Origin: a virus
Lineage: Duplodnaviria; Heunggongvirae; Uroviricota; Caudoviricetes
IMG/VR virus record: IMGVR_UViG_643348547_000010
Location: 1 to 45,905 of that record
DNA length: 45,905 bases
Reading direction: 5' to 3' (one strand)
Below the pieces are notes generated by a model. It was given only the letters and a program-made list of their open reading frames with translations. It ran no database searches and was not told the origin of the DNA. Positions 1,163 to 43,817 of the stretch are shown in pieces. The position numbers and the translations under genes are program-made. The stretch's first letter is position 1, and each line of letters starts with the position of its first letter.

Positions 1163-1818
1163 GTGTGCCCGGAGTTCAGGGCGGGCATGGATGCTTAAAT
1201 GAACCGCGAGTCTGTCTGGAATATTGAACCGGTAACTCACGATGAGAAACCCAACAATCCCACCGGGTGTGACGGTGGAGAACCTGAGCGGCAGTGACCT
1301 GCGGCATGCCCGCAGGGTGATGTAACCCGCTGACAACGGGGATTGAGGCGAGATCACTAAGCCGAGATGATCCTCAAGGTTAAGTACTGAAAGGCTGAAG
1401 AACATGAACCCGTTAATCCGCCTCTGTGGGTTGAAAACGTCACCACGGCCTACGTGATCTGACAGGCCGTGCAGGAGGAACTGGCAGTGATACGTAAGCA
1501 CTGCCGGTCGAAGGTGTTTTGACATGTATGCGAAACACCGGGGCAGCAGCGTCTATCACGCTTGCGTTGCTGACTTCTGCCAACTTGCGGCAAGCAAGGA
1601 TAAAGAGTGCGACGGGCAGCCTCCTCAGTATGCCTGAGTCCAGGCAGGTAAACCGGGGAAGGTCAGCGACGGATGTTAAGGGGGCATGGCTCCGATGACG
1701 CGCTGGCTGGCGGAGCTTCCGTAGTAGTCCGCGATGGGGAAAGCCCATTACATGGCGAAGGGAAGCAGTTTGAATGTGTTTGCGACGTGAATTAACTGAC
1801 CTAACGAGGTGAAGACCT

Positions 1819-3342: not shown

Positions 3343-3347
3343 ATGGA

Positions 3348-3381
3348 GAGCCGGATGCGCTGAAAGGTGCACGTCCGGTTC
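3348..3381 (+). ncRNA. Group II intron domain V
   Basis: GAGCCGGATGCGCTGAAAGGTGCACGTCCGGTTC: 34-nt hairpin with AGC triad and GNRA-type loop, located just after the IEP stop and followed by a short domain VI-like hairpin. Confidence 0.8.
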
Positions 3382-3404
3382 GGGGAGGAGAGGCAGGGAA
3401 ATAG

Positions 3405-3905
<501 letters not shown>

Positions 3906-4196: not shown

Positions 4197-4343
4197 ATTC
4201 ATAGTGCAGGGATCAAAATCATTCCCACTCAATTATTTACGATAACCATAACCAATTGAGTGATAACATTTTTCCAAATCTCAATTTTTCCCGTACCGTT
4301 TTATATACCGTCACCGGAAATCAGTACCATGAAAAATGCCATG

Positions 4344-9567: not shown

Positions 9568-9670
9568 GTTAAATCTCCAGATAGTCGCAGCACCCGTTGC
9601 GCCGCATATCTGGTTATTCTATTACCTGAAAAACCATATATGGATAAAAAGACTATAAATACCAATAGAT

Positions 9671-9687
9671 ATTACCTTTCGGGTAAT
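9671..9687. promoter_or_regulatory. Operator-like 17-bp palindrome (site A)
   Basis: ATTACCTTTCGGGTAAT, intergenic, upstream of 9763 gene. Confidence 0.5.
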
Positions 9688-9762
9688 TTGCAAAACGTGC
9701 TGGATAGCAAACAAATTATTTGTTACTGTATAAACATACAGTTATTGCATGGAGAAGATAAG

Positions 9763-10020
9763 ATGCAGCAGTATCACTATCCACTGGAAGACGGATTTAC
9801 CGAAAGGATTCACACGCCGGGAGGCGTCAGGTCACTGGTGGAGGGATCGCACTTGATGAAATTACTCCGGGATCTCGATAAGGATGGATTTAATGTCGAT
9901 GGCCCACTTGCCGAACTGACTGCACTGATTAACTACGTCACCAGCTCACAGATGTCTATGCAGGATCTGCAAACACATCTCGACTATTGTGCCGAACAAT
10001 TACGAAAACAAACCAGATAA
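9763..10020 (+). CDS. Small protein paralogous to the C-terminal domain of the antirepressor at 10338-10994
   Basis: Start at internal ATG with GGAGAAG RBS; about 45 percent identity by eye to the last 80 aa of the AntA-like protein (shared ...IH-P-GV..L.E.S.LM.LL..L..DG..V.G..AELT....Y...LQTH..Y). Confidence 0.5.
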   Translation: MQQYHYPLEDGFTERIHTPGGVRSLVEGSHLMKLLRDLDKDGFNVDGPLAELTALINYVTSSQMSMQDLQTHLDYCAEQLRKQTR

Positions 10021-10023
10021 GGT

Positions 10024-10052
10024 TTGCAATTACCAAATAGAGTGCTTATATT
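10024..10052 (+). promoter_or_regulatory. Sigma70-like promoter TTGCAA-N17-TATATT
   Basis: Hexamers at 10024-10029 and 10047-10052; operator site B begins 27 bp after the -35 start. Confidence 0.45.
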
Positions 10053-10067
10053 TACCTTTGCGGTAAA
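10051..10067. promoter_or_regulatory. Operator-like 17-bp palindrome (site B)
   Basis: TTTACCTTTGCGGTAAA overlapping the -10/+1 of the promoter above. Confidence 0.5.
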
Positions 10068-10180
10068 TTTACATCGCACTCCTCTTGTGCCATAGTAATC
10101 GGGCACTGGCAAAATCCAGTGCCGGGATTGGTCTCCCGGATTACTAAGTGGCGCATACCACGCCAGACGTGGTTTTTTTA
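10059..10180 (+). ncRNA. Candidate structured leader or small RNA upstream of antirepressor gene
   Basis: About 120 nt between promoter/operator and an intrinsic terminator; contains stem-loops CACTGG...CCAGTG and CCGGGA...TCCCGG; no convincing ORF (track ORF 10119-10310 starts at GTG with no RBS). Confidence 0.3.
10158..10180 (+). terminator. Intrinsic terminator
   Basis: CCACGCCAGACGTGG followed by T7. Confidence 0.6.
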
Positions 10181-10337
10181 TGCGTATAGCACAGTCATGC
10201 CAGAATTATGGTGGGCTGAATGGGGGTCCGAAAGGACGCCGGTACCACTTAGGCCGGTAAGACCAACTCCGTTCAGTTCACCACCATCTGATTGGTCTCA
10301 GCGGTGGTGATGTAATTCGCTAAGTGGAGACGCCATC

Positions 10338-10994
10338 ATGAACGCTCAACTCATCCCCGTATTCAACGGCACTATCGCCAACGAAACCACTCTTCTCGTT
10401 AATGCTCGCGATTTACATACTTTTCTTGGGGTAGGTAAACGCTTTGCATCGTGGATTACAGAACGCATTGCTGAATATGGTTTCGTTGAAAATCAGGACT
10501 ATATTTTGGTTTCCCCAAATCGGGAAATCAAAGGTCGAGGAGGCGATCGCCGTAGCAAAGACTATCACCTCACCCTCGATACGGCCAAAGAAACTGCGAT
10601 GGTCGAGCGCAACGAAAAAGGCCGCCAGATACGCCGATACTTCATTGAATGCGAGAAACGTTTAAGACAACAAGAAACAAAGGTGGAGAAGGTCTTGTCA
10701 GGCTTCATGCCCGCCATTATGGAGGCGATCAAACTGGAAGACAAAAAAGAATACAGTGCCCCACTGAAGCCAGGCTACCGTAGCCTGATTCATTCGCCGT
10801 CTGGTGTTCTCGGCCTGACGGAGAACTCACTGCTGATGAATCTGCTGAACCAGTTGCAGGAAGACGGGCACGATGTATCGGGCGCGGCGGCGGAACTGAC
10901 CACCATGTTCTGCTACATCGTCGGTGTGAGCAAATGCCTGCGTGATATCCAGACGCACGCGGAGTACATCAACGACAAGGCAGGATTCTTCTGA
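10338..10994 (+). CDS. Antirepressor, AntA-like N-terminal domain plus C-terminal domain
   Basis: N-terminal DLHTFLGVGKRFASWITERIAEYGFVENQDYIL pattern typical of AntA/AntB-type antirepressors; RBS GGAG upstream. Confidence 0.7.
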   Translation: MNAQLIPVFNGTIANETTLLVNARDLHTFLGVGKRFASWITERIAEYGFVENQDYILVSPNREIKGRGGDRRSKDYHLTLDTAKETAMVERNEKGRQIRRYFIECEKRLRQQETKVEKVLSGFMPAIMEAIKLEDKKEYSAPLKPGYRSLIHSPSGVLGLTENSLLMNLLNQLQEDGHDVSGAAAELTTMFCYIVGVSKCLRDIQTHAEYINDKAGFF

Positions 10995-11039: not shown

Positions 11040-11068
11040 TTGCAGACTGGGGGTGAATAGCGTACTAT
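11040..11068 (+). promoter_or_regulatory. Sigma70-like promoter TTGCAG-N17-TACTAT
   Basis: Hexamers at 11040-11045 and 11063-11068; site C begins 27 bp after the -35 start. Confidence 0.4.
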
Positions 11069-11223: not shown

Positions 11224-11859
11224 ATGCCACAACAACTGCTGAATCCGGCAAAGGTAACTGAGGTTTTCGCTCATCTGAACGAAACTCCAGACAACCGCGC
11301 CCTGTATTCAGAGTTAGTGAACGGCAACGATGTCACATCTGATGTCAAAGGCGTTTCTCTGGCTCCTGGATACCGCGTTGTCCGTGTAGACGATCGTAAG
11401 AAAGGCGAGATTCCACAGGCGCACTTTGAACTGTCATTGATAAATGACCTCACCGAAGAGGTAGTGTATTACAATCGTGTCATTATCCAGCCTGACAGCT
11501 ATCTTAACTGCCGTCCTGTCACGCAGATATTGGTATGGAGAACCCAGAAGCCTAAGCATCGTGCTGTGCTTCATGATTTCGCCGGCATCATCTTCATGAA
11601 CTACCTCTTGGAACGGTACGATATCATCGTGTCAGATCGCAACCAGACTCATGAAGGCATGTCGTTCTGGCAGGCTCGCATGTATGACGCACTGGAACTT
11701 GGCCTCCACCTCTATGGTTACGACATGATGACATGCGAGCTGATAGAGATGAATAACGAGGAAGAGCTTGAGAAAGGTGAAACCTGGTTGTGGGGTGATG
11801 CGGAAAACTTCCAAAACAGATTGGCCATAATTTCAAAGCATAAGCTGCCAATAAAATAG
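11224..11859 (+). CDS. Hypothetical protein (accessory gene in antirepressor island)
   Basis: 211-aa ORF with RBS (GAGGTGA), followed by a strong terminator; no family recognised. Confidence 0.6.
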   Translation: MPQQLLNPAKVTEVFAHLNETPDNRALYSELVNGNDVTSDVKGVSLAPGYRVVRVDDRKKGEIPQAHFELSLINDLTEEVVYYNRVIIQPDSYLNCRPVTQILVWRTQKPKHRAVLHDFAGIIFMNYLLERYDIIVSDRNQTHEGMSFWQARMYDALELGLHLYGYDMMTCELIEMNNEEELEKGETWLWGDAENFQNRLAIISKHKLPIK

Positions 11860-12389: not shown

Positions 12390-12578
12390 TTATTTTATTA
12401 TTCTTCCGAACAATACAATTCCGAATACTACAAAGCCGAACCATGCCGCTGCACGCAACAGAGATTCCAATTGAAACCCATTTTTATCAAAATGTATGAA
12501 TAGCATAAAAACGCTGCACATATTAGTACAATAAAAGTTATTTGAACCATCATATCTCCTTTTATTGCGGAGTGACAT
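12390..12578 (-). CDS. Small hypothetical protein with C-terminal hydrophobic segment
   Basis: 62-aa ORF only; overlaps the end of the upstream gene. Confidence 0.3.
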   Translation of the reverse strand: MSLRNKRRYDGSNNFYCTNMCSVFMLFIHFDKNGFQLESLLRAAAWFGFVVFGIVLFGRIIK

Positions 12579-14232
12579 CCTGTGGTCGCCACCAGTATGT
12601 CTGGTTAAACTCTTTCTTCGAACGTTGCTCCATTTTACGCAAATAGCCTGGTGAAAAATACTCCTGCATCTGGTTAAAGATCATGTGATCGAGAGCCGCC
12701 TTCAAGTACCAGAGATTCGCACCAGGCATCAAACCTTTCCCCAGCTTCACCAGATCACCACCAGTCTGCTCACTCTTCCCTTCCACAGCATTTAACGGTA
12801 TGCCCTGAGCAATCTTCACTACGTCATCAACCAGACCAGCTACCGGGCCAAGCATCGACGCCAGCGCGCCGCTTCCGTACCTAGTGTGATCTGACAATAA
12901 AAAGTCACCGTAAAGGCCAAGACCACCACCTTTCAGTAGAGCACCAAGCCAGAATTTTGCGGCATCTTCTCCTGTCATCTCTCGAGGATTACGACCAGAC
13001 GCAAGGTCGTTAAGTTGCTGCGACAAAGCGCCAAGAATGGTCGTACTGGCAATAAACGTCGCAATATATGCCGCACGCCCACCAGCAGACGGCATACCCA
13101 TAGCGCGTGACCAGTGACGCATAACAACCGAGATAGGGAACGATTTAAACAGGAAAACACTTCTCGTTAATTCACCTTTCCATGTTCCACGCTGAATACC
13201 AGAACCGGTTATCAGTTGCTCACGTGCTCCCGGTGTAATAACAGCCATATCAACTTCTTCAGTTACGGCACCGAGCAGTTTACGCATTGCCTCAAATTTC
13301 ACGCGTTCAGGCTCACCAAGATGTTTAACTGCTGAATCAGGGATACGCATAATGCTTTCCGGTGTCAGCATCGTATTATTACCGTTCCCCCAGTCCTCCT
13401 GTTTCGCCAGCTTCCATACGCTCCAGTCTGTGTCAGTAATCCCTTTGCTTTTCAGGATACGAAAATCAGAGTCATCGAGGCTACGAAGGTCTGGTGTCCG
13501 TGACACTACTTCTCCCAGGCTTCCCATCATGGTTACGCCATAGGCGCGCTTGTGCGCATCTGACCATGCTGTAAGCCCACTGGCACGCATTACCGCCGTT
13601 GCCGCCCAACGAGACACTGACGGCCCCATATTATCCATCGCCCAGCGGTTAACGCTGCCAAGTAGAGATTCCATCGCCAGACCAGCGCGGCGCGCCCGCG
13701 CAAGTTCTGTACGGTTCGTTGGGTCCATAGCTTCAAGCTGGTTGCGGAATAACTGGTTCATTGGAAGGTTGGTAACCTTCGCAGACAGATACATGGTTCC
13801 AAGATCAGAGAACGATGACAGCAACGCGGATCCGAGTCTGCTGGCAACCAGCCAGTTGCGGATATTGTCAGACCATCGCGCGATGTGCGGATTCGCTACA
13901 GGCTGTGTCTTTCCGGAAATAAAGTTGTACAGATTCTCTGTGTTGTTCGCCAGCCGCTCGACTTTACCGGTTTTACTCGGGTTAGCTGTTGCCGTTTCTG
14001 CCTTCACCTGATCAAGAAGAGAGCGGAAAACATGATCGGGGTTTGGGCCATATGTTTCCACCAGTGCAATATCTTTACTGATACCTTCCAGGTGACCGAC
14101 CATGATTTCCCATAGAGAGCGATCGCCATAAAGTTGCTGATATTGCAGATAGGAATCTGCATCTTTGAAATGTATCTGTCGTGATGCATTACCACGGTTA
14201 GCACGTGCGCCGGAAATTCGCATTCCGGTATC
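12562..14232 (-). pseudogene. Internal virion (ejection/core) protein gene, C-terminal portion, separated from its 5' part by IS629 copies
   Basis: 557 codons of phage sequence downstream of IS629 left end; the track ORF (12562-14325) starts inside the IS. Confidence 0.7.
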
Positions 14233-14286
14233 TGAACCGCCCCGGGAATCCTGGAGACTAAACTTCCTGAGAAAGAGGTAAACAGG

Positions 14287-14613
14287 ATGACTAAAAATAC
14301 TCGTTTTTCCCCCGAAGTCCGTCAACGGGCAGTCCGTATGGTTCTGGAAAGTCAGAGCGAATATGACTCACAATGGGCGACAATTTGTTCCATTGCTCCA
14401 AAGATTGGCTGTACGCCGGAGACTCTGCGTGTCTGGGTTCGCCAGCATGAGCGGGATACCGGGGGCGGTGATGGAGGGCTCACCACCGCTGAACGTCAGC
14501 GTCTGAAAGAGCTGGAACGTGAAAATCGTGAACTGCGCCGCAGTAACGATATCCTTCGCCAGGCTTCCGCTTATTTTGCGAAGGCGGAGTTCGACCGCCT
14601 CTGGAAAAAATGA
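14287..14613 (+). CDS. IS629 OrfA
   Basis: 108-aa ORF, same protein as 422-748 apart from one residue. Confidence 0.9.
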
Positions 14614-15500
14614 TGCCACTGCTGGATAAGCTGCGTGAGCAGTACGGGGTCGGACCGCTATGCAGCGAACTGCATATTGCCCCGTCAACGTATTACCACT
14701 GTCAGCAACAGCGACATCATCCGGATAAACGCAGTGCCCGTGCGCAGCGCGATGACTGGCTGAAGAAAGAGATACAGCGCGTATACGATGAAAATCACAA
14801 GGTATACGGTGTGCGTAAAGTCTGGCGTCAGTTGTTACGGGAAGGTATCAGAGTGGCCAGATGCACTGTGGCACGTCTCATGGCGGTTATGGGACTTGCC
14901 GGTGTTCTCCGGGGTAAAAAGGTCCGTACGACCATCAGCCGGAAAGCCGTTGCCGCAGGCGACCGCGTAAACCGTCAGTTCGTGGCAGAACGACCTGACC
15001 AGCTGTGGGTGGCTGATTTTACTTACGTCAGCACATGGCGGGGCTTCGTCTATGTGGCGTTCATCATTGATGTGTTTGCCGGATACATCGTGGGGTGGCG
15101 GGTCTCATCGTCCATGGAAACGACATTCGTGCTGGATGCACTGGAGCAGGCGTTATGGGCCCGTCGACCGTCCGGCACGGTCCATCACAGTGATAAAGGT
15201 TCTCAGTATGTATCGCTGGCCTACACACAGCGGCTTAAGGAAGCCGGATTACTGGCATCAACAGGAAGTACAGGCGACTCGTATGACAACGCGATGGCGG
15301 AGAGCATCAATGGTCTTTACAAAGCGGAGGTAATACACCGTAAGAGCTGGAAAAACCGTGCAGAAGTGGAACTGGCCACACTCACGTGGGTGGACTGGTA
15401 TAACAATCGACGATTGCTGGAAAGGCTGGGCCATACTCCTCCGGCAGAAGCAGAAAAAGCTTATTATGCTTCCATCGGAAACGATGATCTGGCAGCCTGA
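14610..15500 (+). CDS. IS629 OrfB (DDE transposase catalytic part)
   Basis: 296-aa ORF overlapping orfA in the -1 frame as in IS3-family elements. Confidence 0.9.
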
Positions 15501-15542
15501 GTTCACAGATAAAACACTCTCCAGGAAACCCGGGGCGGTTCA

Positions 15543-15896
15543 GTCGCCTGCGGCAACGGCTTTCCGGCTGATGGTCGTACGGACCTTTTTACCCCGGAGA
15601 ACACCGGCAAGTCCCATAACCGCCATGAGACGTGCCACAGTGCATCTGGCCACTCTGATACCTTCCCGTAACAACTGACGCCAGACTTTACGCACACCGT
15701 ATACCTTGTGATTTTCATCGTATACGCGCTGTATCTCTTTCTTCAGCCAGTCATCGCGCTGCGCACGGGCACTGCGTTTATCCGGATGATGTCGCTGTTG
15801 CTGACAGTGGTAATACGTTGACGGGGCAATATGCAGTTCGCTGCATAGCGGTCCGACCCCGTACTGCTCACGCAGCTTATCCAGCAGTGGCATCAT
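15543..15896 (-). pseudogene. IS629 orfB, truncated
   Basis: Encodes first 117 aa of OrfB then runs into the neighbouring IS end. Confidence 0.8.
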
Positions 15897-16219
15897 TTTT
15901 TCCAGAGGCGGTCGAACTCCGCCTTCGCAAAATAAGCGGAAGCCTGGCGAAGGATATCGTTACTGCGGCGCAGTTCACGATTTTCACGTTCCAGCTCTTT
16001 CAGACGCTGACGTTCAGCGGTGGTGAGCCCTCCATCACCGCCCCCGGTATCCCGCTCATGCTGGCGAACCCAGACACGCAGAGTCTCCGGCGTACAGCCA
16101 GTCTTTGGAGCAATGGAACAAATTGTCGCCCATTGTGAGTCATATTCGCTCTGACTTTCCAGAACCATACGGACTGCCCGTTGACGGACTTCGGGGGAAA
16201 AACGAGTATTTTTAGTCAT
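15893..16219 (-). CDS. IS629 OrfA (in truncated copy)
   Basis: 108-aa ORF matching the other orfA copies. Confidence 0.85.
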
Positions 16220-16273
16220 CCTGTTTACCTCTTTCTCAGGAAGTTTAGTCTCCAGGATTCCCGGGGCGGTTCA

Positions 16274-17076
16274 GTAAGCTTATTCAGCCCACCAGTAGCG
16301 ATCGTGTTATAAGCCTCTCCAAGAAATGAAGACAACTCGGCATCGTTCATCAGTTGTCCATCGGCTCGGATATAATATTTGCGATCCAGCTTACCTATAA
16401 CATCGCTAACCCACTTATCCTTTGATACTGCCCCAACCTTTTCCATAGAATGATGTTGAGGGATCCCCCAGTTTTCGAGATAGCCAATGTCCCCACCAGC
16501 ATCATTAAACCGGCGGCGCAGCAGCTCTGTAACTTCTCTCCACGCCTTAGCACCGTTTCTTGCTTTAGCATTGCCAGTATTTTGCCCCCGCATTTCATAT
16601 ACCAGGTCACGTACGCCCGCTTCATCTTCAAACAGACCAAAAAAGCGAGGATCAACTGCTTCGAATGCCTCCTGCAATTGACTCAATGCATAATCACGGG
16701 TGGCTTTTGTTCTGGATTCAACAGAGAGGAAATTAGATTTACCGTCTGCATTAAAAGCTATAGTACGGTTAAGAGCGCCAAGTTTCCCATCAGCCCCTTG
16801 ATAGCTATTGATAAATTTATCCAATCTCTGACGTGCGGCTATAGTGAGAGCCACACGACGTTTCTTTAATGTCGCTTCTCGCTGTAATTCTTCAGATGCC
16901 AATTGTGCTGCACGATACAACCGTTCTGATTCGGAAAGTTGTCGCCACGACATCGGGTCATCACGAGCAATGGAGCGCATATTTCGATAAATGCGGTCTT
17001 CAATGTTCTGTATTTCTCGCGCCGTTAACGTGCGCTGCGCCGCCTGCTGGACCGCTTGTATACATTCCTGTCTCAT
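16274..17076 (-). pseudogene. Internal virion (ejection/core) protein gene, N-terminal portion, truncated by IS629
   Basis: Track ORF 16225-17076 reads from phage sequence into the IS end (last 16 residues IS-derived). Confidence 0.7.
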
Positions 17077-26643: not shown

Positions 26644-26694
26644 CTTCTTTCTCCATTAGTGGGTCTGTTACGACCCACAGGTTAATAACAGGCG

Positions 26695-30655: not shown

Positions 30656-30684
30656 TTGACATTTAACGCACGAATTATTACCTT
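30656..30684 (+). promoter_or_regulatory. Possible promoter for the tRNA transcript (TTGACA at 30656-30661)
   Basis: Consensus -35 hexamer; -10 is weak and overlapped by operator site E. Confidence 0.3.
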
Positions 30685-30693
30685 TCAGGTAAG
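30677..30693. promoter_or_regulatory. Operator-like 17-bp palindrome (site E)
   Basis: ATTACCTTTCAGGTAAG. Confidence 0.45.
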
Positions 30694-31014: not shown

Positions 31015-31091
31015 GTGGCATTAGCTCACTTGGACAGAGCAACCGCCTTCTAAGCGGTTGGTCGCAGGTTCGAATCCTGCATGCCACGCCA
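31015..31091 (+). tRNA. tRNA-Arg (anticodon UCU), phage-encoded
   Basis: Cloverleaf by hand: acceptor GTGGCAT/ATGCCAC, D-arm GCTC/GAGC, anticodon stem ACCGC/GCGGT with loop CTTCTAA, T-arm GCAGG-TTCGAAT-CCTGC, discriminator G, CCA; sequence differs from host argU. Confidence 0.85.
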
Positions 31092-33296: not shown

Positions 33297-33889
33297 TGAT
33301 TACCATCCTGACGTTCTTTGAGTCGCTTCCTGGCTGCTGCTATGCGATCAGCAATTGTCACATTCACATTAACATCCAGACGTTCTTTGAACGCGTTGAC
33401 ATCAACATGCTTACCAATCAGCTCAAGGTTCTTCACCTTGTCAGGCCATTTAATTTTTTTGAGGATTGTCTCTATCGAATCCTCGTTCATGTTCATGATG
33501 GTCGATGACAGATCAAAGCCACTAAGCGTAGTGCGCCAGATTTTCGGCCACTCACGGATTGGTTTAAGGCTCCCATCGTCGTTGAGGATGTCGATCACGT
33601 CCATCTGGTCGATCTCCACCAGGCGCATGAGAACGTAATCAGCACTGACGCGCATTCGTTTGTTGCGCTCCTCCATCAACTCGGCAATCCGTTTTTGAAT
33701 GCGTTCATCGCGCATCATGACACTGGCTTTAACTGCCGCTGTATTTGGGGAGAATCCTGCGTTAATCGCTGCCTGAGTCTGGTTTTCAGGCGTTTTGATG
33801 TATGACTGGCAATAAGCCTCCTGCATTGCTGTTAGTGGCTTAAATTGCGTTGATTTGCGTTTATAGGTTTTAGGTTCAGCAGGCATCAT
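33293..33889 (-). CDS. Terminase small subunit
   Basis: Motif QEAYCQSYIKTPENQTQAAINAGFS typical of terminase small subunits; start moved to ATG at 33889 because a terminator hairpin lies inside the longer track ORF. Confidence 0.7.
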   Translation of the reverse strand: MMPAEPKTYKRKSTQFKPLTAMQEAYCQSYIKTPENQTQAAINAGFSPNTAAVKASVMMRDERIQKRIAELMEERNKRMRVSADYVLMRLVEIDQMDVIDILNDDGSLKPIREWPKIWRTTLSGFDLSSTIMNMNEDSIETILKKIKWPDKVKNLELIGKHVDVNAFKERLDVNVNVTIADRIAAARKRLKERQDGNQ

Positions 33890-33905
33890 AACCACCGTGG
33901 TAATA

Positions 33906-33922
33906 GTTACCGTTGTGGTAAT
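33906..33922. promoter_or_regulatory. Operator-like 17-bp palindrome (site N) upstream of terS
   Basis: GTTACCGTTGTGGTAAT, preceded by GGTAATAGTTACC. Confidence 0.45.
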
Positions 33923-34007: not shown

Positions 34008-34346
34008 TCACACTATTAATTTCGTTTCATGCCAGCCTTTAGTCACCCAGCATTGCGAGTCACCATTACACGGGCATGAATTAACTGGAACTCTCTCGCC
34101 GCACTTACCGCAACATTTTCTGCTGATCGATTTTATACGCCCGCGCACGCGTGCATCATCCTGGCGGATCAGCAGCGCGATGTACTCGGCCATTTCATAG
34201 GGATCGCGACCAGGGCGCCGGGCGGCGCAGTTCCGCGCCAGCATTTCCTGCTCCTGCTTATCCAGCACCAGTTCAATTTTGCGCTCACCAGATGCAGCTT
34301 GTCTGGCTCTCTGAGCGGCTTTGCGCTCTGCTGCTGATTTAGCCAT
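34008..34346 (-). CDS. Hypothetical Cys-rich protein (possible zinc-binding regulator)
   Basis: 112 aa; basic N-terminus, C-terminal CCGKCG...CPC...C cluster. Confidence 0.5.
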   Translation of the reverse strand: MAKSAAERKAAQRARQAASGERKIELVLDKQEQEMLARNCAARRPGRDPYEMAEYIALLIRQDDARVRGRIKSISRKCCGKCGERVPVNSCPCNGDSQCWVTKGWHETKLIV

Positions 34347-37728: not shown

Positions 37729-37745
37729 TTTACCTCTAAGGTAAT
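37729..37745. promoter_or_regulatory. Operator-like 17-bp palindrome (site O), overlapping RBS of 37382-37726 gene
   Basis: TTTACCTCTAAGGTAAT. Confidence 0.45.
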
Positions 37746-37790
37746 TAAAAACCACATAAGACACGAAATCAATAGATTTTAGAATATTTT

Positions 37791-37807
37791 ATTACCCGCC
37801 AGGTAAT
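37791..37807. promoter_or_regulatory. Operator-like 17-bp palindrome (site F)
   Basis: ATTACCCGCCAGGTAAT. Confidence 0.5.
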
Positions 37808-39650: not shown

Positions 39651-39729
39651 GGTAAGCCCTGTTATTAGTATTGGGATTACGGTCATTTTGTGCTGACACA
39701 AAAAAAAGATCAACCAGATTTGGTTTTTT

Positions 39730-39746
39730 ATTACCTTTGAGGTACG
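39730..39746. promoter_or_regulatory. Operator-like site (site G, weaker right half)
   Basis: ATTACCTTTGAGGTACG. Confidence 0.35.
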
Positions 39747-39756
39747 AATAGATATG

Positions 39757-39778
39757 AAAAGACCGCCGGGTGGCGGTC
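39757..39778 (-). terminator. Intrinsic terminator after Cro-like gene (tR1-like position)
   Basis: Minus-strand hairpin GACCGCC-ACCC-GGCGGTC followed by TTTT. Confidence 0.45.
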
Positions 39779-39800
39779 TACAGAGGGTTGTAGCTGGATA

Positions 39801-40031
39801 TCATGAGTAGAAGAAGTATGCCAGTTCTGCTTTTGAGCGCAGCCATTGTCTTGTTTTACAGGCTTTAAAAAGCCCATTCATCAATACCTTACCTGGCATT
39901 TTGCGCTTACCTGTTAAGTGAGTCTGGATATAGTGACTCGTCGTTCCGGCTTCCTGTGCGAAGGCTTCACGCTCATCCGGAGTAAGTGCAAGCCAGTGCT
40001 TTTTGAAATCGAAATGTCCGTTATCGCTCAT
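39801..40031 (-). CDS. Cro-like HTH regulator
   Basis: 76 aa; HTH-like segment LTPDEREAFAQEAGTTSHYIQTHLTGKR; first gene of leftward early operon, divergent from repressor. Confidence 0.6.
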   Translation of the reverse strand: MSDNGHFDFKKHWLALTPDEREAFAQEAGTTSHYIQTHLTGKRKMPGKVLMNGLFKACKTRQWLRSKAELAYFFYS

Positions 40032-40066
40032 AGCTATTGCCTGATATTTATTTCAGATAATAAATA

Positions 40067-40083
40067 TTCACCCATAAGGTAAC
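40067..40083. promoter_or_regulatory. Operator-like site H in the divergent immunity intergenic region
   Basis: TTCACCCATAAGGTAAC. Confidence 0.45.
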
Positions 40084-40097
40084 AAAAATCAAGGATA

Positions 40098-40114
40098 GTT
40101 ACCTACGGGGTGCA
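40098..40114. promoter_or_regulatory. Operator-like site I (degenerate right half)
   Basis: GTTACCTACGGGGTGCA. Confidence 0.35.
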
Positions 40115-40131
40115 TTTACCTGTTGGGTAAT
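40115..40131. promoter_or_regulatory. Operator-like site J
   Basis: TTTACCTGTTGGGTAAT. Confidence 0.5.
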
Positions 40132-40185
40132 ATTGCTTTAAATTGAATCATCTACTGATTCATATATGAGGCGATTTTCCAGAAA

Positions 40186-40770
40186 ATGAAAAGTATCCAG
40201 GACGTCCGCAGGCAAAATCTCAACGACTTGATCGACCGTGAATTCAATGGTGTTCAGACGCGGATGGCAGAAAAACTTGGAACTCAGGCAAATCTGGTAA
40301 ACCGCTGGGCTCTTGGCAAGAAGGTTATCGGCGACCAGGTTGCACGAAAAATTGAAGCTGCCGCCAATAAACCCCGTAACTGGCTTGATATTGATCGTTC
40401 GCTTTCTCAGGAGGGTTTTCAGCCTGTCGGCCCGAGCGATATAGGTCAGCTGGCGGCTCACAACCTGGAACGCTGGATGAGCGAAAGCCGCGACCTTTCA
40501 ACGCAGGGAAAACTTCACCGCGCATCCGGCGTCGCCCAGGTGACAATCAGTCGCCTGTTAAACAATGAGGTCAGCGTTTCCATTTCCACCCTGGAGAATG
40601 TTGCATCCGCATTCGGGCGTCACGGATATGAACTACTGATTCACCCGCACGACCCTGCGACTATCAACTATGACCGCTCGCGCTACGCATTGTTACCCGA
40701 AACCGAGAAAGCAAAGATCGAAAGTTACATTGAATTTGTCATCAACCAGAACGAAAAAAACAAACAATAA
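40186..40770 (+). CDS. Immunity repressor candidate: double-HTH DNA-binding protein without peptidase domain
   Basis: 194 aa; two Cro/C1-type HTH segments (QTRMAEKLGTQANLVNRWALGKK and VAQVTISRLLNNEVSVSISTLENVASAF); no Ser-Lys S24 motifs; own terminator. Confidence 0.65.
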   Translation: MKSIQDVRRQNLNDLIDREFNGVQTRMAEKLGTQANLVNRWALGKKVIGDQVARKIEAAANKPRNWLDIDRSLSQEGFQPVGPSDIGQLAAHNLERWMSESRDLSTQGKLHRASGVAQVTISRLLNNEVSVSISTLENVASAFGRHGYELLIHPHDPATINYDRSRYALLPETEKAKIESYIEFVINQNEKNKQ

Positions 40771-40791
40771 AATCATACTCTTCAGTAAGTA

Positions 40792-40814
40792 AGCCGCCTT
40801 CTGGCGGCTTTTTT
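40792..40814 (+). terminator. Intrinsic terminator after repressor gene
   Basis: AGCCGCCTTCTGGCGGCT followed by T6. Confidence 0.7.
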
Positions 40815-40826
40815 ATTGCCTATACT

Positions 40827-40843
40827 ATTACCTAATGGGTAAT
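40827..40843. promoter_or_regulatory. Operator-like site K
   Basis: ATTACCTAATGGGTAAT (both half-sites perfect). Confidence 0.5.
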
Positions 40844-40861
40844 TTTTTTAACTCATATCTA

Positions 40862-40890
40862 TTGACATCAAACCAAATACGCATAATTAT
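40862..40890 (+). promoter_or_regulatory. PL-like early promoter (TTGACA at 40862-40867, AT-rich -10 region)
   Basis: Consensus -35; site L begins 27 bp after the -35 start, as at the promoters at 10024 and 11040. Confidence 0.45.
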
Positions 40891-40905
40891 TACCTCAACG
40901 GTAAC
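40889..40905. promoter_or_regulatory. Operator-like site L
   Basis: ATTACCTCAACGGTAAC. Confidence 0.5.
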
Positions 40906-40923
40906 AGACCGAGGTAACAAGTT

Positions 40924-41076
40924 ATGCAGTGGAAAATCATCAACGGTTGGTACTGCGTTACTGCATGCGGATTCATGAGCTGGAAGTTCCGCACCTTACA
41001 GGAAGGCATTAAGTGGGCTTTCGTCAGCAAAGAAGCTCGCGATGTAGCCAACGATAACGAGATATGGGAGGGCTGA
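40924..41076 (+). CDS. Small hypothetical protein (first gene of rightward early operon)
   Basis: 50-codon ORF MQWKIINGWYCVTACGFMSWKF... with RBS GAGGTAA; not in the supplied track (below size cut-off). Confidence 0.35.
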   Translation: MQWKIINGWYCVTACGFMSWKFRTLQEGIKWAFVSKEARDVANDNEIWEG

Positions 41077-41078
41077 TA

Positions 41079-41378
41079 ATGAACGTTAATCAGCAGAAAA
41101 ATCTTCAAAAAATCATGCTGGCATTCGACAAGGACTACCGCCTGTCAGAACAGCTATATGACCGACAAGTTGAACTGATTGAGAGCATCCGACTTCATCA
41201 ACTGTCCTCAACTTTCGACGTTGTAACAGGCAAAGGCGTTCGTCAGGAAGTGCTGGAGGCTGCTAAAGACAGCCCTGAGTTCGAAGAACTGATGGATGCC
41301 TACCGGCGCGAGGCAATGGCAATTATAGCGCGCTGGGATCTGGCGGATCAGCTTGATGGACAGAGGGACGCGGCATGA
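41079..41378 (+). CDS. Hypothetical early protein
   Basis: Start at MNVNQQKNLQKIM...; stop overlaps next start (ATGA). Confidence 0.5.
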   Translation: MNVNQQKNLQKIMLAFDKDYRLSEQLYDRQVELIESIRLHQLSSTFDVVTGKGVRQEVLEAAKDSPEFEELMDAYRREAMAIIARWDLADQLDGQRDAA

Positions 41379-42196
41379 AACCGGGAATTTATTTCGACAT
41401 CAGCAACGAAGACTACCACGCCGGTGACGGCGTGAGTAAGTCGCAACTGGACATGGTTGCCAAGAATCCGGCGCTTCTTAAATGGGTTCAGGCAGCACCA
41501 GAAGACGAAGAGAAAAAGTCTGCACTGGATATGGGAACCGCATTGCACTGTCTGCTTCTGGAGCCTGGAGAATTCGACAAACGCTTCATTGTTTCACCGA
41601 AGTTCGATCGTCGGACGAAACAAGGTAAAGCTGACGAAGAAGCATTTCTTCGTGATGTAGCGGATATGGGGATTACGGTACTTGATGCCGAGCAGTGGCG
41701 GAAACTGGAGCTGATGCGTGATAGCGCAATGGCTCACCCGGCGGCACGCTGGATGCTGGAAGCACCTGGTTACTGCGAAGCATCAATGTACTGGAACGAT
41801 GAAGAGACGGGTGAGTTGTGCCGAATTCGTCCAGACAAATGGCTGAACGAGCACAACGTGATCGTCGACGTGAAAAAGGTTGCAGATATGGACCGTTTTG
41901 CACGTCACATCGAGGAATTCCGCTACCACGTGCAGGACGCAATGTACCGCGAAGGCGCAATGAGGGTTACTGGTCAGCCGCATGGTTTTTTCTTTCTTGC
42001 CGTGAGCGAAAGCATTGATTGTGGTCGGTATCCGGTACGCGTGTTCGGGCTGGATGCGCCGGATGTCGATGCCGGGCACGCTCTGTTCCGCCGGGATCTG
42101 AATACCTATCACGAATGCCGCATCAGCGATGAATGGGGCGGCGTGGAAATTATTAAACGCCCTGAGTGGGCACGCAAACAGGATATGTACGTATGA
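41375..42196 (+). CDS. PD-(D/E)xK exonuclease (RecE/YqaJ-like recombination exonuclease)
   Basis: 273 aa; N-terminal ISNEDYHAGDGVSKSQL pattern; coupled to the RecT gene. Confidence 0.7.
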   Translation: MKPGIYFDISNEDYHAGDGVSKSQLDMVAKNPALLKWVQAAPEDEEKKSALDMGTALHCLLLEPGEFDKRFIVSPKFDRRTKQGKADEEAFLRDVADMGITVLDAEQWRKLELMRDSAMAHPAARWMLEAPGYCEASMYWNDEETGELCRIRPDKWLNEHNVIVDVKKVADMDRFARHIEEFRYHVQDAMYREGAMRVTGQPHGFFFLAVSESIDCGRYPVRVFGLDAPDVDAGHALFRRDLNTYHECRISDEWGGVEIIKRPEWARKQDMYV

Positions 42197-43110
42197 GCAA
42201 CGAAATTGCAATCACCAATGATGTGTTGGCTATTCGGGGAATCGATGAAGTTACATGGAGCGCTCTGAAAAACAGTATTTACCCTGGGGCAAAAGATGAA
42301 TCGGTAATGATGGCAGTCGATTACTGCCGGGCGCGTCAACTCGATCCTCTTCTTAAGCCGGTACACCTGGTACCAATGAGTGTTAAAGACTCGAAGAGTG
42401 GAAAGAATGAATGGCGCGACGTGGTCATGCCTGGCATTGGACTTTATCGCATTCAGGCCTACCGTTCCGGCGATTACGCAGGCGCTAATGAACCTGAGTT
42501 CGGTCCAGATGTAACACAAACGCTTTCAGGAGTGGAGGTTACCTTCCCTCAGTGGTGTAAGTACACCGTCAGCAAGCGAATGGCAAGCGGGGAAATCGTA
42601 GAGTTTAGCGCCAAAGAATACTGGATTGAGAACTATGCAACTGGGGGGCGTGACACATCGGCACCAAATGCCATGTGGAAAAAGCGCCCTTATGCGCAGT
42701 TGGCAAAATGCGCAGAGGCACAGGCATTACGTAAAGCATGGCCGGAGATTGGTCAACAAGCCACAGCTGAGGAAATGGAAGGTAAATATATCGACTCACC
42801 TGACATTATTGAACGTGACGTAACTCCAAGAAGTCAGGCAAAGCACGGCACAGCATCCAGCATGAACAGTCTGATCAACGCTAAAACAGTGAAAAAGCCT
42901 GATGAGCAAACGCGTAAAGCGGATAGCCGTGATCCAGAAGAAATGCTGATGGCCTTTACCAGCGCAGCGATGAATTACAGCACTGTCTCCGAACTGGATA
43001 AGGCTTACAAATACATTGCACAAAAACTTTCAGATGATGACGAACTGCTGGCAAAAGCCACCGACGTTTACAGCGTTCGTCGGGAAGAATTAAACGAAAC
43101 ATCTATGTAA
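42193..43110 (+). CDS. RecT-family single-strand annealing protein
   Basis: Start at MSNEIAITNDV...; block YPGAKDESVMMAVDYCRARQLDPLLKPVHLVPM typical of RecT family. Confidence 0.75.
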   Translation: MSNEIAITNDVLAIRGIDEVTWSALKNSIYPGAKDESVMMAVDYCRARQLDPLLKPVHLVPMSVKDSKSGKNEWRDVVMPGIGLYRIQAYRSGDYAGANEPEFGPDVTQTLSGVEVTFPQWCKYTVSKRMASGEIVEFSAKEYWIENYATGGRDTSAPNAMWKKRPYAQLAKCAEAQALRKAWPEIGQQATAEEMEGKYIDSPDIIERDVTPRSQAKHGTASSMNSLINAKTVKKPDEQTRKADSRDPEEMLMAFTSAAMNYSTVSELDKAYKYIAQKLSDDDELLAKATDVYSVRREELNETSM

Positions 43111-43517: not shown

Positions 43518-43817
43518 GTGAGAAAGTTAAGCCGACTTGAAAAATATAACATGAACAAGGTTTCAGTGCGCAGTCCGTCAAAGATTGTCGCCGTTACTCC
43601 TGCGGCGATAGAGATCGAAAAACGCGCGATTGAAAGAGAGAAAAAAGGGCAATTCCGCATTGCCGCTCACCTTTGGCTTCAGTGTATGGATGTTGCTTCT
43701 GGTGATGTTGAACGTGCAAGGATCGCGGTTCGCAGGGACCAATGTATCACAAAAGGTAACGGCCTTCGCCGTGGCGACTATAACGGCATAGGATGTTGTG
43801 GGGTGGTTTATGACTAA
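43518..43817 (+). CDS. Small regulator-like protein (PerC/ANR-like pattern)
   Basis: 99-aa ORF with GTG start and GAGGG RBS; motif FRIAAHLWLQCMDVAS...ERARIAVRRDQC. Confidence 0.4.
   Translation: MRKLSRLEKYNMNKVSVRSPSKIVAVTPAAIEIEKRAIEREKKGQFRIAAHLWLQCMDVASGDVERARIAVRRDQCITKGNGLRRGDYNGIGCCGVVYD

What the first reader, a model, noticed from the sequence alone, without database searches (positions are those of the whole stretch)
39730..40924. Immunity switch with a non-cleavable double-HTH repressor and lambda-like terminator layout
Divergent Cro-like (minus strand) and double-HTH repressor (plus strand) genes flank a 154-bp region with three operator-like sites (two adjacent, one 31 bp away). 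The repressor has two HTH segments and no recognisable LexA/CI-type autocleavage domain, so SOS-driven self-cleavage is unlikely and an antirepressor route is expected. The repressor gene has its own terminator (40792-40814), followed by a second operator pair and a consensus -35 promoter for the recombination operon. A terminator plus operator-like site (39757-39746) follows the Cro-like gene, a tR1-like arrangement suggesting antitermination or repressor-controlled read-through.
Basis: partly seen in the sequence, partly recalled or inferred. Interest (0 to 1): 0.6.

Follow-up and report, generated by a model that had tools for sequence, protein, structure and literature searches.

The report
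Known Rep–Ant prophage immunity switch
This is the lysis/lysogeny switch of a common phiV10/epsilon15-type E. coli prophage: its repressor is not cut during DNA damage but is pulled off the DNA by a small LexA-controlled antirepressor, a mechanism already worked out and crystallised for the related Salmonella phage SPC32H.

Summary
Divergent genes for a Cro-like protein and a 194-aa repressor flank a 154-bp region with three TTACC-N5-GGTAA operators. Both genes end in stable terminator hairpins. A second operator pair brackets a TTGACA promoter for the recombination operon. The motif occurs 10 times exactly in the window against 0.04 expected.

The system is already known. The window is a phiV10/epsilon15-like (Uetakevirus) prophage. 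Its repressor is 100% identical to phiV10 gp40 and to vB_EcoP_ZX5 ORF21, which was tested by overexpression. It is a full-length homologue of SPC32H Rep (PDB 5D50, E=4e-42). It has no S24 domain. The predicted antirepressor exists elsewhere in the window, at 9763-10020: it is 86% identical to SPC32H Ant and sits behind a perfect LexA box.

Two parts of the reading fail. According to the literature on SPC32H Rep, the second "HTH" is a dimerisation domain, not a second DNA reader. Lambda-style antitermination is not supported: no N/Q homologue was found among the ORFs scanned, and a conserved promoter follows the post-cro terminator.

Beyond the finding, operators sit at every transcription unit, in positions conserved across four phages, including two pairs 62 bp apart. 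A second antirepressor lies behind isrK-like and C4 RNAs. I could not establish whether this wider layout has been published.

The parts
39731..39745 (.). Weak operator (TTACCTTTGAGGTAC, 1 mismatch) just downstream of the post-cro terminator, centred about -60 from the inferred replication-gene promoter
   Evidence: An equivalent degenerate site sits at the same position in Tyrion (35365), BUCT711 (6032) and SPC32H (34778, 2 mismatches) (alignment A1).
39685..39713 (-). Inferred promoter for the replication genes: TTGATC (39713-39708), 17-bp spacer, CAAAAT (39690-39685)
   Evidence: The block GGTTGATCTTTTTT...AAAAT is invariant across four phages that are otherwise 75% identical here (A1). It matches 8 of 12 consensus positions, so the scanner did not flag it. 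Inferred.
39760..39779 (-). Intrinsic terminator hairpin after the Cro-like gene
   Evidence: Fold energy -15.1 kcal/mol, z -4.4. Annotated in phiV10. The stem is conserved in four phages; the U-tract is clear only in the window and Tyrion (A1).
39801..40031 (-). Cro-like HTH protein, 76 aa (phiV10 gp41 / SPC32H_042 homologue)
   Evidence: phrog_35 'transcriptional repressor', E=5.6e-13. AF2 model has pLDDT 81.6 and five helices; top fold matches are YdaS, the 434 repressor DNA-binding domain and C-proteins, TM 0.56-0.62, none significant. Weak HTH similarity to the Rep N-terminal domain, E=0.004. 58-84% identical among four phages (A8).
40068..40082 (.). Operator O3 (TCACCCATAAGGTAA), overlapping the core of the Cro-like gene's promoter
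   Evidence: Scanner promoter on the minus strand: TTGTTA 40085-40080, 17-bp spacer, TATTAT 40062-40057. An alternative -35, TTGATT 40095-40090, lies in the invariant AAAAATCAA (A2).
40099..40113 (.). Operator O2 (TTACCTACGGGGTGC, 2 mismatches), 17 bp from O1
   Evidence: It is an exact site in SPC32H and BUCT711, and the same weak variant in Tyrion (A2).
40116..40130 (.). Operator O1 (exact), overlapping the -35 and spacer of the inferred rep promoter: TTTACC 40115-40120, 17-bp spacer, TTAAAT 40138-40143
   Evidence: Both promoter hexamers are conserved in four phages (A2). The promoter is inferred and was not flagged by the scanner.
40186..40770 (+). Rep, a non-cleavable prophage repressor: N-terminal DNA-binding HTH, middle HTH-like dimerisation domain, C-terminal tetramerisation and Ant-binding domain
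   Evidence: PDB 5D50_A, E=4e-42 over residues 1-190. 100% identical to phiV10 gp40 and ZX5 ORF21, and 42% to SPC32H Rep. Pfam HTH_3 in two stretches, no S24. Domain roles come from PMC9986798.
40791..40816 (+). Intrinsic terminator of rep
   Evidence: Fold energy -21.1 kcal/mol, z -6.3. Annotated in phiV10.
40828..40904 (+). Leftward-operon promoter: TTGACA 40862-40867, 17-bp spacer, AATTAT 40885-40890. It is bracketed by two exact operators (40828-40842 and 40890-40904) 62 bp apart
   Evidence: The same 62-63 bp pair occurs in SPC32H, Tyrion and BUCT711 (A3).
9672..9686 (.). Exact operator upstream of ant, about 40 bp before the LexA box
   Evidence: Conserved in four phages (A5).
9724..9743 (.). 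LexA box TACTGTATAAACATACAGTT (CTGT-N8-ACAG at 9726-9741)
   Evidence: Conserved in four phages, with one core mismatch in BUCT711 (A5).
9763..10020 (+). Ant, a small SOS-controlled antirepressor of 85 aa
   Evidence: PDB 5D50_E, E=4e-47. 86% identical to SPC32H Ant (A4). Annotated only as 'hypothetical' in phiV10 (p24).
10052..10994 (+). Second antirepressor module: exact operator 10052-10066, isrK-like sRNA 10103-10179, C4 antisense RNA 10204-10288, and an AntA-domain protein 10338-10994 with an Ant-like C-terminus
   Evidence: Rfam scores 67.7 and 61.2 bits, both above gathering threshold. Pfam AntA, E=3.6e-27. The C-terminus (137-214) is 40% identical to Ant, E=4e-16. The same module occurs in phiV10 and Tyrion.
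37730..37806 (-). Second bracketed promoter: exact operators 37792-37806 and 37730-37744, 62 bp apart, around TTGATT 37772-37767. It lies after a short terminator hairpin and before the DUF1064 gene
   Evidence: Strongly conserved in four phages (A6).
33889..33921 (.). Two adjacent operators (one exact, one with 1 mismatch) abutting the start codon of the small terminase gene, after a terminator hairpin
   Evidence: Equivalent sites occur in SPC32H (12 and 30) and Tyrion (67 and 85).
30678..30692 (.). Single exact operator upstream of the head-gene operon
   Evidence: Equivalent sites: SPC32H 3175, Tyrion 3969, BUCT711 34570.

Best explanation
The region is the primary immunity switch of a phiV10/epsilon15-like (Uetakevirus) prophage and works like the Rep/Ant system of Salmonella phage SPC32H.

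Rep (40186-40770) binds TTACC-N5-GGTAA palindromes through pairs of N-terminal HTH domains. It assembles into tetramers through its middle and C-terminal domains. In the lysogen it occupies three groups of sites:
- O3, which blocks the promoter of the Cro-like gene.
- O1 and O2, which overlap its own weak promoter and autoregulate it.
- The operator pair that brackets the leftward recombination-operon promoter.

Rep's own terminator stops its transcript from running into that operon.

Rep is not cleaved in the SOS response. Instead, LexA cleavage derepresses the small ant gene 30 kb away (9763-10020). Ant binds the Rep C-terminal domain, breaks up the tetramer and releases Rep from DNA.

What is shown here: homology of Rep and Ant to the crystallised pair, the absence of S24, the operator motif with its statistics and conservation, the LexA box, and the terminator hairpins.

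What is taken from the literature on close homologues: that Rep is not cleaved, the Ant mechanism, and the domain roles.

What is inferred: which promoter each operator controls, autoregulation, and looping between paired operators.
For: Phage identity: 98% nucleotide identity to phiV10.

Rep: full-length match to 5D50_A at E=4e-42. It is 100% identical to phiV10 gp40 and ZX5 ORF21. Overexpressing ZX5 ORF21 abolished free phage and cut lysis-gene transcripts by more than 99.9% (PMC9782041). No S24 domain and no Ala-Gly or Cys-Gly site.

Ant: E=4e-47 to 5D50_E, preceded by a perfect CTGT-N8-ACAG box that is conserved in four phages.

Literature: SPC32H Rep binds palindromic sites as a tetramer, and Ant breaks the tetramer (PMC9638917). 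The domain roles are DBD, MDD and CAD (PMC9986798). LexA-controlled antirepression in SPC32H is summarised in PMC7380047.

Operators: 10 exact copies against 0.04 expected, at conserved positions in four phages. The Rep recognition helix NLVNRW is invariant in the same four phages.

Terminators.
Against: No experiment has been done on this prophage. Rep is only 42-43% identical to the crystallised protein, so interface details may differ. The ZX5 data are overexpression only, and that paper tested the large Bro-N antirepressor, not the small Ant. Binding of Rep to these palindromes is inferred here: I could not read the two primary SPC32H papers, and the Cro-like protein could share the sites. 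The rep promoter and the post-cro promoter fall below the scanner threshold. My single-sequence AF2 model of Rep failed (pLDDT 45), so the fold rests on sequence homology alone. The prophage carries IS insertions in a virion gene and may not be able to complete induction.
Confidence: 0.88

Rival explanations
1. A lambda-type switch in which the repressor is inactivated by RecA-stimulated self-cleavage, with early transcription extended past the post-cro terminator by an N-like antiterminator.
For: The gene order is lambda-like: divergent repressor and cro-like genes, three operators, recombination genes to one side and O/P-like replication genes to the other. A real terminator follows the cro-like gene.
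Against: There is no S24 domain at E<=1 and no Ala-Gly or Cys-Gly site. The repressor is homologous to a repressor that reviews report is inactivated by Ant rather than by cleavage. A cognate Ant with a LexA box is present. No N/Q-type family was hit among the early and late ORFs scanned. A conserved promoter-like block follows the terminator.
Confidence: 0.03
2. The dispersed TTACC-N5-GGTAA palindromes are not Rep operators. They are bound mainly by the Cro-like protein or by a late regulator, and Rep acts only at a subset of them.
For: The Cro-like HTH segment AGTTSHYIQ.HLT is as invariant as the Rep recognition helix across the four phages. In lambdoid switches Cro and the repressor share operators. 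Several sites lie at late operons (terS, head), which a lysogeny repressor does not normally need to control directly.
Against: The palindromes are concentrated where a lysogeny repressor must act: at the cro promoter, the rep promoter and the leftward promoter. Published summaries state that SPC32H Rep binds palindromic sites as a tetramer. The paired sites fit a protein with two DNA-binding units per tetramer.
Confidence: 0.15
3. The 194-aa protein is an HigA/VapI-type antitoxin or a generic XRE regulator of a neighbouring cargo gene, not the prophage master repressor.
For: One phage record annotates the identical protein as 'plasmid maintenance system antidote protein VapI' (H6). Pfam gives only generic HTH families, plus a sub-threshold YdaS_toxin hit.
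Against: There is no adjacent toxin gene. The match to the SPC32H Rep structure is full length. The gene sits at the immunity position, divergent from cro. The identical ZX5 protein blocks phage production when overexpressed.
Confidence: 0.02

Closest known systems
Salmonella phage SPC32H Rep/Ant antirepression system (Kim & Ryu 2013, J Virol 87:11775; Kim et al. 2016, PNAS 113:E2480; PDB 5D4Z and 5D50)
   Same: Rep is homologous over its full length (E=4e-42). Ant is 86% identical. A LexA box precedes ant, and ant lies divergent from the tailspike gene. The operator half-sites TTACC/GGTAA are the same. The rep-cro intergenic layout matches (two sites 17 bp apart, a third about 30 bp further). 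The same 62-bp operator pairs occur.
   Different: Rep is only about 42% identical. The O2 site is degenerate here. The central N5 of the operators is not A/T-rich as it is in SPC32H. This phage adds a second, larger antirepressor behind isrK-like and C4 RNAs, and an extra operator pair at 11068/11169; SPC32H has neither.
phiV10 gp40, epsilon15 gp38 and vB_EcoP_ZX5 ORF21 repressors (Uetakevirus)
   Same: The protein is 100% identical to phiV10 gp40 and ZX5 ORF21. phiV10 already annotates the two HTH motifs and both terminators. ZX5 ORF21 was shown to block phage production when overexpressed (PMC9782041). From memory of the abstract of Kropinski et al. 2007, which I could not read, epsilon15's major repressor was identified experimentally.
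   Different: This copy is a prophage with IS3-family insertions. Its second antirepressor has an AntA N-terminal domain instead of Bro-N. In the phiV10 record the small Ant is annotated only as a hypothetical protein, and the two sections of the ZX5 paper that I read name only the large Bro-N protein as antirepressor.
LexA-controlled antirepressors of Gifsy prophages and coliphage 186 Tum (Lemire et al. 2011, PMC3121763; Shearwin et al. 1998)
   Same: The logic is the same: a non-cleavable repressor, and an SOS signal relayed by a small LexA-repressed antirepressor.
   Different: The proteins are unrelated. From memory of the abstract of Kim & Ryu 2013, the SPC32H-type Ant was described as structurally distinct from those antirepressors. 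Published summaries say it breaks up the Rep tetramer and works by forcing a conformational change rather than by covering the DNA-binding domain.
Lambda CI/Cro/OR-OL switch
   Same: Divergent repressor and cro genes, three operators between them, a second operator set at the leftward promoter, and probable cooperative or looped binding by an oligomeric repressor.
   Different: No S24 autocleavage domain, a different oligomerisation domain, and no N/Q antitermination detected. Operators are present at many transcription units instead of two.
Phage P1/P7 immI (C4 antisense RNA-icd-ant) and Gifsy-1 isrK-anrP
   Same: The second module has a C4-family RNA and an isrK-family RNA directly upstream of an antirepressor gene. 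Like P1's C1 repressor (from my own knowledge), the repressor here has operators dispersed around the genome.
   Different: The repressors are unrelated, and the operators are palindromic here whereas P1's are asymmetric. The antirepressor carries the SPC32H-Ant-like C-terminal domain.

Membership tests
SPC32H-type Rep (non-cleavable tetrameric phage repressor) | Full-length sequence homology to the crystallised Rep (DBD + MDD + CAD) | tested here: met
   5D50_A, E=4e-42, query residues 1-190 aligned to chain residues 2-197. The 5D4Z C-terminal fragment aligns to residues 89-190 at E=4e-20.
SPC32H-type Rep (non-cleavable tetrameric phage repressor) | No LexA/CI-type S24 autocleavage module | tested here: met
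   No Peptidase_S24 hit at E<=1. No Ala-Gly or Cys-Gly dipeptide.
SPC32H-type Rep (non-cleavable tetrameric phage repressor) | Cognate small Ant encoded in the same phage | tested here: met
   The ORF at 9763-10020 matches 5D50_E at E=4e-47 and is 86% identical to SPC32H Ant.
SPC32H-type Rep (non-cleavable tetrameric phage repressor) | ant under LexA control (SOS box at the ant promoter) | tested here: met
   TACTGTATAAACATACAGTT at 9724-9743, 20-40 bp upstream of the ant start codon. Conserved in four phages. LexA binding itself was not tested.
SPC32H-type Rep (non-cleavable tetrameric phage repressor) | Palindromic operators shared with SPC32H at the rep-cro intergenic region | tested here: met
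   The TTACC-N5-GGTAA motif and its spacing are the same in both phages. The recognition helix NLVNRW is invariant.
SPC32H-type Rep (non-cleavable tetrameric phage repressor) | Tetramer formation, and disassembly and DNA release by Ant | not testable with these tools
   Needs biochemistry. The single-sequence AF2 model of Rep was unusable (pLDDT 45).
Lambda CI / LexA-like SOS-cleavable repressors | C-terminal Peptidase_S24 domain with a Ser-Lys dyad and an Ala-Gly cleavage site | tested here: not met
Lambda-type N/nut-tR1 antitermination | An antiterminator protein (N- or Q-like) encoded in the early region, with the terminator as the only route to downstream genes | tested here: not met
   No antiterminator family was hit among the early and late ORFs scanned (PHROGs; Pfam); not every ORF was scanned. 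A conserved promoter-like block lies downstream of the terminator (A1). Absence of a hit is not proof that none exists.
Cro/CI-type (XRE, lambda-repressor-like) HTH for the 76-aa protein | Five-helix lambda-repressor-like fold with an HTH | tested here: inconclusive
   No Pfam hit. phrog_35 'transcriptional repressor', E=5.6e-13. The AF2 model (pLDDT 81.6) has five helices, and all its top matches are XRE-type domains (YdaS TM 0.62, 434 repressor TM 0.56), but none has E below 1.
P1 immI-type C4 RNA / antirepressor module | C4-family antisense RNA immediately upstream of an antirepressor gene | tested here: met
   RF01695 at 10204-10288, 61.2 bits against a gathering score of 45. RF01394 isrK at 10103-10179, 67.7 bits against 50. 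AntA-domain gene at 10338-10994. The RNA-target pairing was not examined.

The most novel reading that the evidence does not exclude
Uetakevirus Rep may be more than a two-promoter switch. It may be a genome-wide regulator that takes the place of an antitermination cascade.

TTACC-N5-GGTAA operators sit at conserved positions at nearly every transcription unit: the cro, rep, leftward, replication-gene, post-replication, terS, head, ant and second-antirepressor units, and in relatives also int and lysis. They follow a recurring pattern. An upstream operator is centred near -62, and a second operator abuts the -10 exactly 62 bp away, which fits looping by one tetramer. At the ant promoter a LexA box takes the place of the downstream operator. 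That would put the antirepressor under a double Rep + LexA lock with positive feedback.

A subset of these phages adds a second antirepressor. It is a fusion of the Ant Rep-binding domain to a Bro-N or AntA domain, and it lies behind isrK-like and C4 RNAs.

I could not establish whether this wider layout has been described. The primary SPC32H, epsilon15 and phiV10 papers were not readable here.
Probability: 0.3. Interest if true: 0.45.

Novelty: already known. Interest (0 to 1): 0.2.

Why it matters
The finding itself is a correct rediscovery of a published mechanism. Its practical value is in annotation. The same immunity region is present at 95% identity or more in 540 of 5,426 complete E. 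coli genomes. In those records the repressor is labelled only 'helix-turn-helix domain-containing protein', and the small Ant is labelled 'hypothetical' in the phiV10 record. Recognising the Rep/Ant/LexA circuit predicts that these prophages respond to SOS through an antirepressor, and possibly cross-talk with each other, since Ant is 86% identical between E. coli and Salmonella phages whose Reps are only 42% identical. The dispersed operator layout, if it proves undescribed, would give a compact model of a temperate phage that controls each transcription unit directly instead of by antitermination.

Tried and rejected
- S24 or autocleavage reading: rejected.
- Second HTH as a DNA reader: rejected on the published domain assignment. 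By my own count, residues 96-152 have a net charge of +1 against +5 for the N-terminal domain; this is weak support only.
- AF2 of Rep from a single sequence: failed, pLDDT 45. Not used.
- Sequence search of the Cro-like protein against the PDB: nothing at E<=1. Fold search gave only non-significant XRE-type matches.
- Reading the primary papers (PNAS 2016, J Virol 2013, Virology 2007) by DOI and by PMC id: none is held. Statements about them come from citing papers or, where marked, from my memory of their abstracts.
- Full-text search for the operator string: no relevant paper.
- NCBIfam: no informative family for Rep, Cro-like, Ant or AntA.
- PADLOC on cargo-like genes near ant and in the flank: nothing.
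- Other CTGT-N8-ACAG matches at 26665 and 31207: they lack the AT-rich centre and flanks, the one I placed (31207) lies inside an ORF, and about 0.7 such matches are expected by chance. Treated as chance.
- The large database searches (search for homologous proteins, the search of protein representatives, metagenome scans) were deliberately not used, because the identification was already unambiguous.
Full report
**What is there**

Window 39730-40924 holds two divergent genes. One is a 76-aa ORF on the minus strand (39801-40031). The other is a 194-aa ORF on the plus strand (40186-40770). They are separated by exactly 154 bp.

The gap contains three copies of a palindrome, TTACC-N5-GGTAA:
- 40116-40130, exact.
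- 40099-40113, with two mismatches, 17 bp away.
- 40068-40082, with one mismatch, 31 bp further on.

Exact copies of this motif, which specifies 10 bases, occur 10 times in the 45.9-kb window against 0.04 expected. None of 100 dinucleotide-preserving shuffles reaches that count.

Both genes end in hairpin terminators:
- 40791-40810 plus a T-run, -21.1 kcal/mol, z -6.3.
- 39779-39760 on the minus strand, -15.1 kcal/mol, z -4.4.

After the repressor's terminator, two exact operators (40828 and 40890) lie 62 bp apart. They bracket a promoter, TTGACA-17-AATTAT, that matches 10 of 12 consensus positions. It leads into small ORFs and then an exonuclease and a RecT gene. After the Cro-like gene's terminator there is a one-mismatch operator at 39731-39745. 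The only error is a coordinate pair (39757-39746) that is 10-20 bp off.

**What it is**

The stretch is 98% identical to Escherichia phage phiV10 and is close to many other Uetakevirus (epsilon15-like) phages. The phiV10 record already annotates the 194-aa protein as a putative repressor with two HTH motifs, and it annotates both terminators.

The protein is 100% identical to phiV10 gp40 and to ORF21 of phage vB_EcoP_ZX5. Overexpressing ZX5 ORF21 abolished free phage and reduced endolysin and holin transcripts by more than 99.9% (PMC9782041).

Against solved structures, the protein matches the repressor of Salmonella phage SPC32H over its full length (5D50_A, E=4e-42). Identity is 42-43%. Pfam finds HTH_3 in two stretches and no Peptidase_S24, even at E<=1. 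The protein has no Ala-Gly or Cys-Gly dipeptide.

**The predicted antirepressor exists**

At 9763-10020 there is an 85-aa ORF, divergent from the tailspike gene. It matches the SPC32H antirepressor chain 5D50_E at E=4e-47 and is 86% identical to SPC32H Ant.

Twenty to forty base pairs upstream of its start codon lies TACTGTATAAACATACAGTT, a perfect CTGT-N8-ACAG LexA box. The box is conserved in SPC32H, Tyrion and BUCT711, with one core mismatch in BUCT711.

Papers I could read describe the published system as follows:
- SPC32H Rep binds palindromic DNA as a tetramer. The pairs of DNA-binding domains come from different dimers. Tetrameric Ant binds two Rep dimers and breaks the tetramer (PMC9638917).
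- Rep consists of an N-terminal DNA-binding domain, a middle dimerisation domain, and a C-terminal p53-like tetramerisation and Ant-binding domain (PMC9986798).
- After LexA self-cleavage an antirepressor is made that inhibits the repressor by protein-protein contact (PMC7380047).

From memory of the abstract of Kim & Ryu 2013, SPC32H Rep is not cleaved during SOS, and a point mutation in the LexA box makes Ant constitutive. I could not open that paper, the PNAS 2016 structure paper or the epsilon15 genome paper.

First, the 'double HTH'. The second HTH_3-like stretch (about residues 100-150) corresponds to the middle dimerisation domain of the crystallised homologue, not to a second DNA reader. 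Each palindrome is read by a pair of N-terminal domains. The proposed docking of 'two HTH units of one protein on one 17-bp site' is therefore the wrong model.

Second, the 'tR1-like' arrangement. The terminator is real, and its stem is conserved in four phages. However, immediately after the weak operator there is an invariant block, GGTTGATCTTTTTT...AAAAT. I read it as a promoter: TTGATC 39713-39708, a 17-bp spacer, and CAAAAT 39690-39685 (A1). It matches 8 of 12 consensus positions and so falls below the scanner's threshold.

No N- or Q-type antiterminator family was hit among the early and late ORFs I scanned, which was not every ORF. The only regulators found were a PerC-like activator (43518-43817) and a phrog_536 'transcriptional regulator' (34008-34346) just upstream of the terminase genes. 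The simpler reading is that the terminator insulates the cro transcript and the replication genes have their own promoter. This is an inference, not a demonstration.

**The Cro-like protein**

It has no Pfam hit. It matches phrog_35 'transcriptional repressor' at E=5.6e-13. It aligns weakly with the Rep HTH (E=0.004).

Its single-sequence AF2 model is usable (pLDDT 81.6) and has five helices. The best fold matches are all XRE-type DNA-binding domains: YdaS at TM 0.62, and the 434 repressor DNA-binding domain at TM 0.56. None of them is statistically significant. 'Cro-like' is therefore reasonable by position and probable fold, but it is not proven.

**Cis-regulatory anatomy (inferred)**

Alignments were made with SPC32H (Salmonella), Tyrion (Enterobacter) and BUCT711 (Klebsiella). 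They show the following:
- A conserved TTTACC-17-TTAAAT for the rep promoter, whose -35 lies inside O1.
- An invariant AAAAATCAA, which reads TTGATT on the other strand, as a -35 for the cro promoter.
- O3 lying over the core of the cro promoter (A2). The scanner's alternative promoter, TTGTTA-17-TATTAT, is also overlapped by O3.

The Rep recognition helix NLVNRW is invariant in all four phages, which matches the invariant half-sites.

**Beyond the finding**

The operator motif is not confined to the immunity region. Sites with at most one mismatch lie at these positions:
- 9672, upstream of ant.
- 10052, upstream of a second antirepressor module.
- 11068 and 11169, upstream of a phrog_1349 gene.
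- 30678, before the head operon.
- 33889 and 33907, abutting the terS start codon.
- 37730 and 37792, after the P-like replication gene.

The same positions are occupied in SPC32H, Tyrion and BUCT711. In those relatives there are also weaker sites upstream of int and of the lysis genes.

Two promoters share one design, with one operator centred near -62 and another abutting the -10. They are the leftward promoter and the one at 37730-37806. Their operator spacing is 62 bp (63 in one case) in all four phages. At ant, by my hand count on the sequence, the upstream operator keeps the same position and the LexA box sits where the second operator would be.

This fits one tetramer bridging two operators, with Rep directly gating each transcription unit. 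That is unlike lambda and resembles, by analogy only, the dispersed operators of P1's C1 repressor (from my own knowledge). PMC9986798 remarks that the mechanism of gene repression by SPC32H Rep 'has not been extensively characterized'. Because I could not read the primary papers, I cannot say whether this layout is new.

**A second antirepressor route**

Downstream of ant lie, in order:
- An exact operator at 10052.
- An isrK-family sRNA at 10103-10179 (67.7 bits).
- A C4-family antisense RNA at 10204-10288 (61.2 bits).
- A 218-aa protein with an AntA N-terminal domain (E=3.6e-27).

The last 80 residues of that protein are 40% identical to the small Ant (E=4e-16).

phiV10 and Tyrion carry the same RNAs in front of a Bro-N version of this protein. 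SPC32H and BUCT711 lack the module. In phiV10 the protein is truncated within the Ant-like domain. The 'anti-repressor' tested in the ZX5 paper is described there as a Bro-N protein. By its position in the genome it is probably the counterpart of this gene, but I did not compare the sequences.

**Verdict**

The central interpretation, a non-cleavable repressor that needs an antirepressor, is correct. It is also already published for SPC32H, and published for an identical protein in ZX5 and phiV10. The double-HTH DNA-docking idea and the antitermination idea are not supported. Novelty is 'already known' and interest is low. There is a modest residual chance that the genome-wide operator layout and the RNA-gated Ant-domain fusion have not been described.

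Noticed in passing
window 9672, 10052, 11068, 11169, 30678, 33889, 33907, 37730, 37792 (plus the immunity-region sites): The Rep operator motif TTACC-N5-GGTAA is dispersed over the whole prophage, in intergenic positions that are conserved in SPC32H, Tyrion and BUCT711. Two promoters carry operator pairs exactly 62 bp apart in all four phages.
   Followed up: yes
window 10052-10994: A second antirepressor module: an isrK-like sRNA (10103-10179), a C4 antisense RNA (10204-10288), and an AntA-domain protein whose C-terminal 80 aa resemble the small Ant. It resembles P1 immI and Gifsy-1 isrK-anrP. It is present in phiV10 and Tyrion with a Bro-N head, and absent in SPC32H and BUCT711.
   Followed up: partly
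L003 2266-2945 (phiV10 p23/p22): The phiV10 Bro-N 'anti-immunity' protein ends prematurely inside the Ant-like C-terminal domain (…LLMNRTTGMMYQARRRS) and is followed by a 29-aa ORF. This looks like a frameshifted gene or a sequencing error.
   Followed up: no
window 9613-9645: A conserved block, CATTCTATTACC..AACC.TATATG.AT, lies between the tailspike and ant genes in all four phages. It contains one operator half-site and may be the tailspike promoter region.
   Followed up: no
window 14287-16219: Two IS3-family copies interrupt a large virion structural gene, whose pieces are 12562-14325 and 16225-17076. One copy is complete (orfA/orfB with an ALIL frameshift pseudoknot). The other is inverted and truncated. 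The prophage is probably defective for particle production.
   Followed up: partly
window 422-3432: In the left flank, an IS3-family element (transposase ORFs at 422-1227, with an ALIL pseudoknot at 703-819) is followed by a group II intron. The intron shows as a reverse transcriptase/maturase ORF at 1819-3342 and an Rfam Intron_gpII hit at 3346-3432. It may have inserted into the IS.
   Followed up: no
window 4216-4232: AATCATTCCCACTCAAT is the reverse complement of the attP/attB core reported for vB_EcoP_ZX5 (the 3' end of guaA). It marks one prophage end, next to the Rz-like gene. The window stops exactly at the integrase start codon (45905), so the other att site and the integrase promoter lie outside it.
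   Followed up: partly
window 41375-43110: The exonuclease (273 aa) and RecT (314 aa, GTG start) are separate overlapping ORFs here. phiV10 annotates a single 586-aa RecE-RecT fusion, so one of the two sequences has a frameshift.
   Followed up: no
window 11224-11859: A 211-aa protein of unknown function (phrog_1349; no Pfam or PADLOC hit) is preceded by two operator-like sites 101 bp apart. It is absent from phiV10 at this position and may be a cargo gene under Rep control.
   Followed up: partly
window 9763-10020 compared with 40186-40770: Ant is 86% identical between this E. coli prophage and Salmonella phage SPC32H, while their Reps are only 42% identical. This suggests that Ant could act across prophages, as reported for Gifsy antirepressors.
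   Followed up: no
window 31015-31091: A tRNA-Arg (anticodon TCT) gene lies on the strand opposite the structural genes. It is conserved in SPC32H and BUCT711.
   Followed up: no
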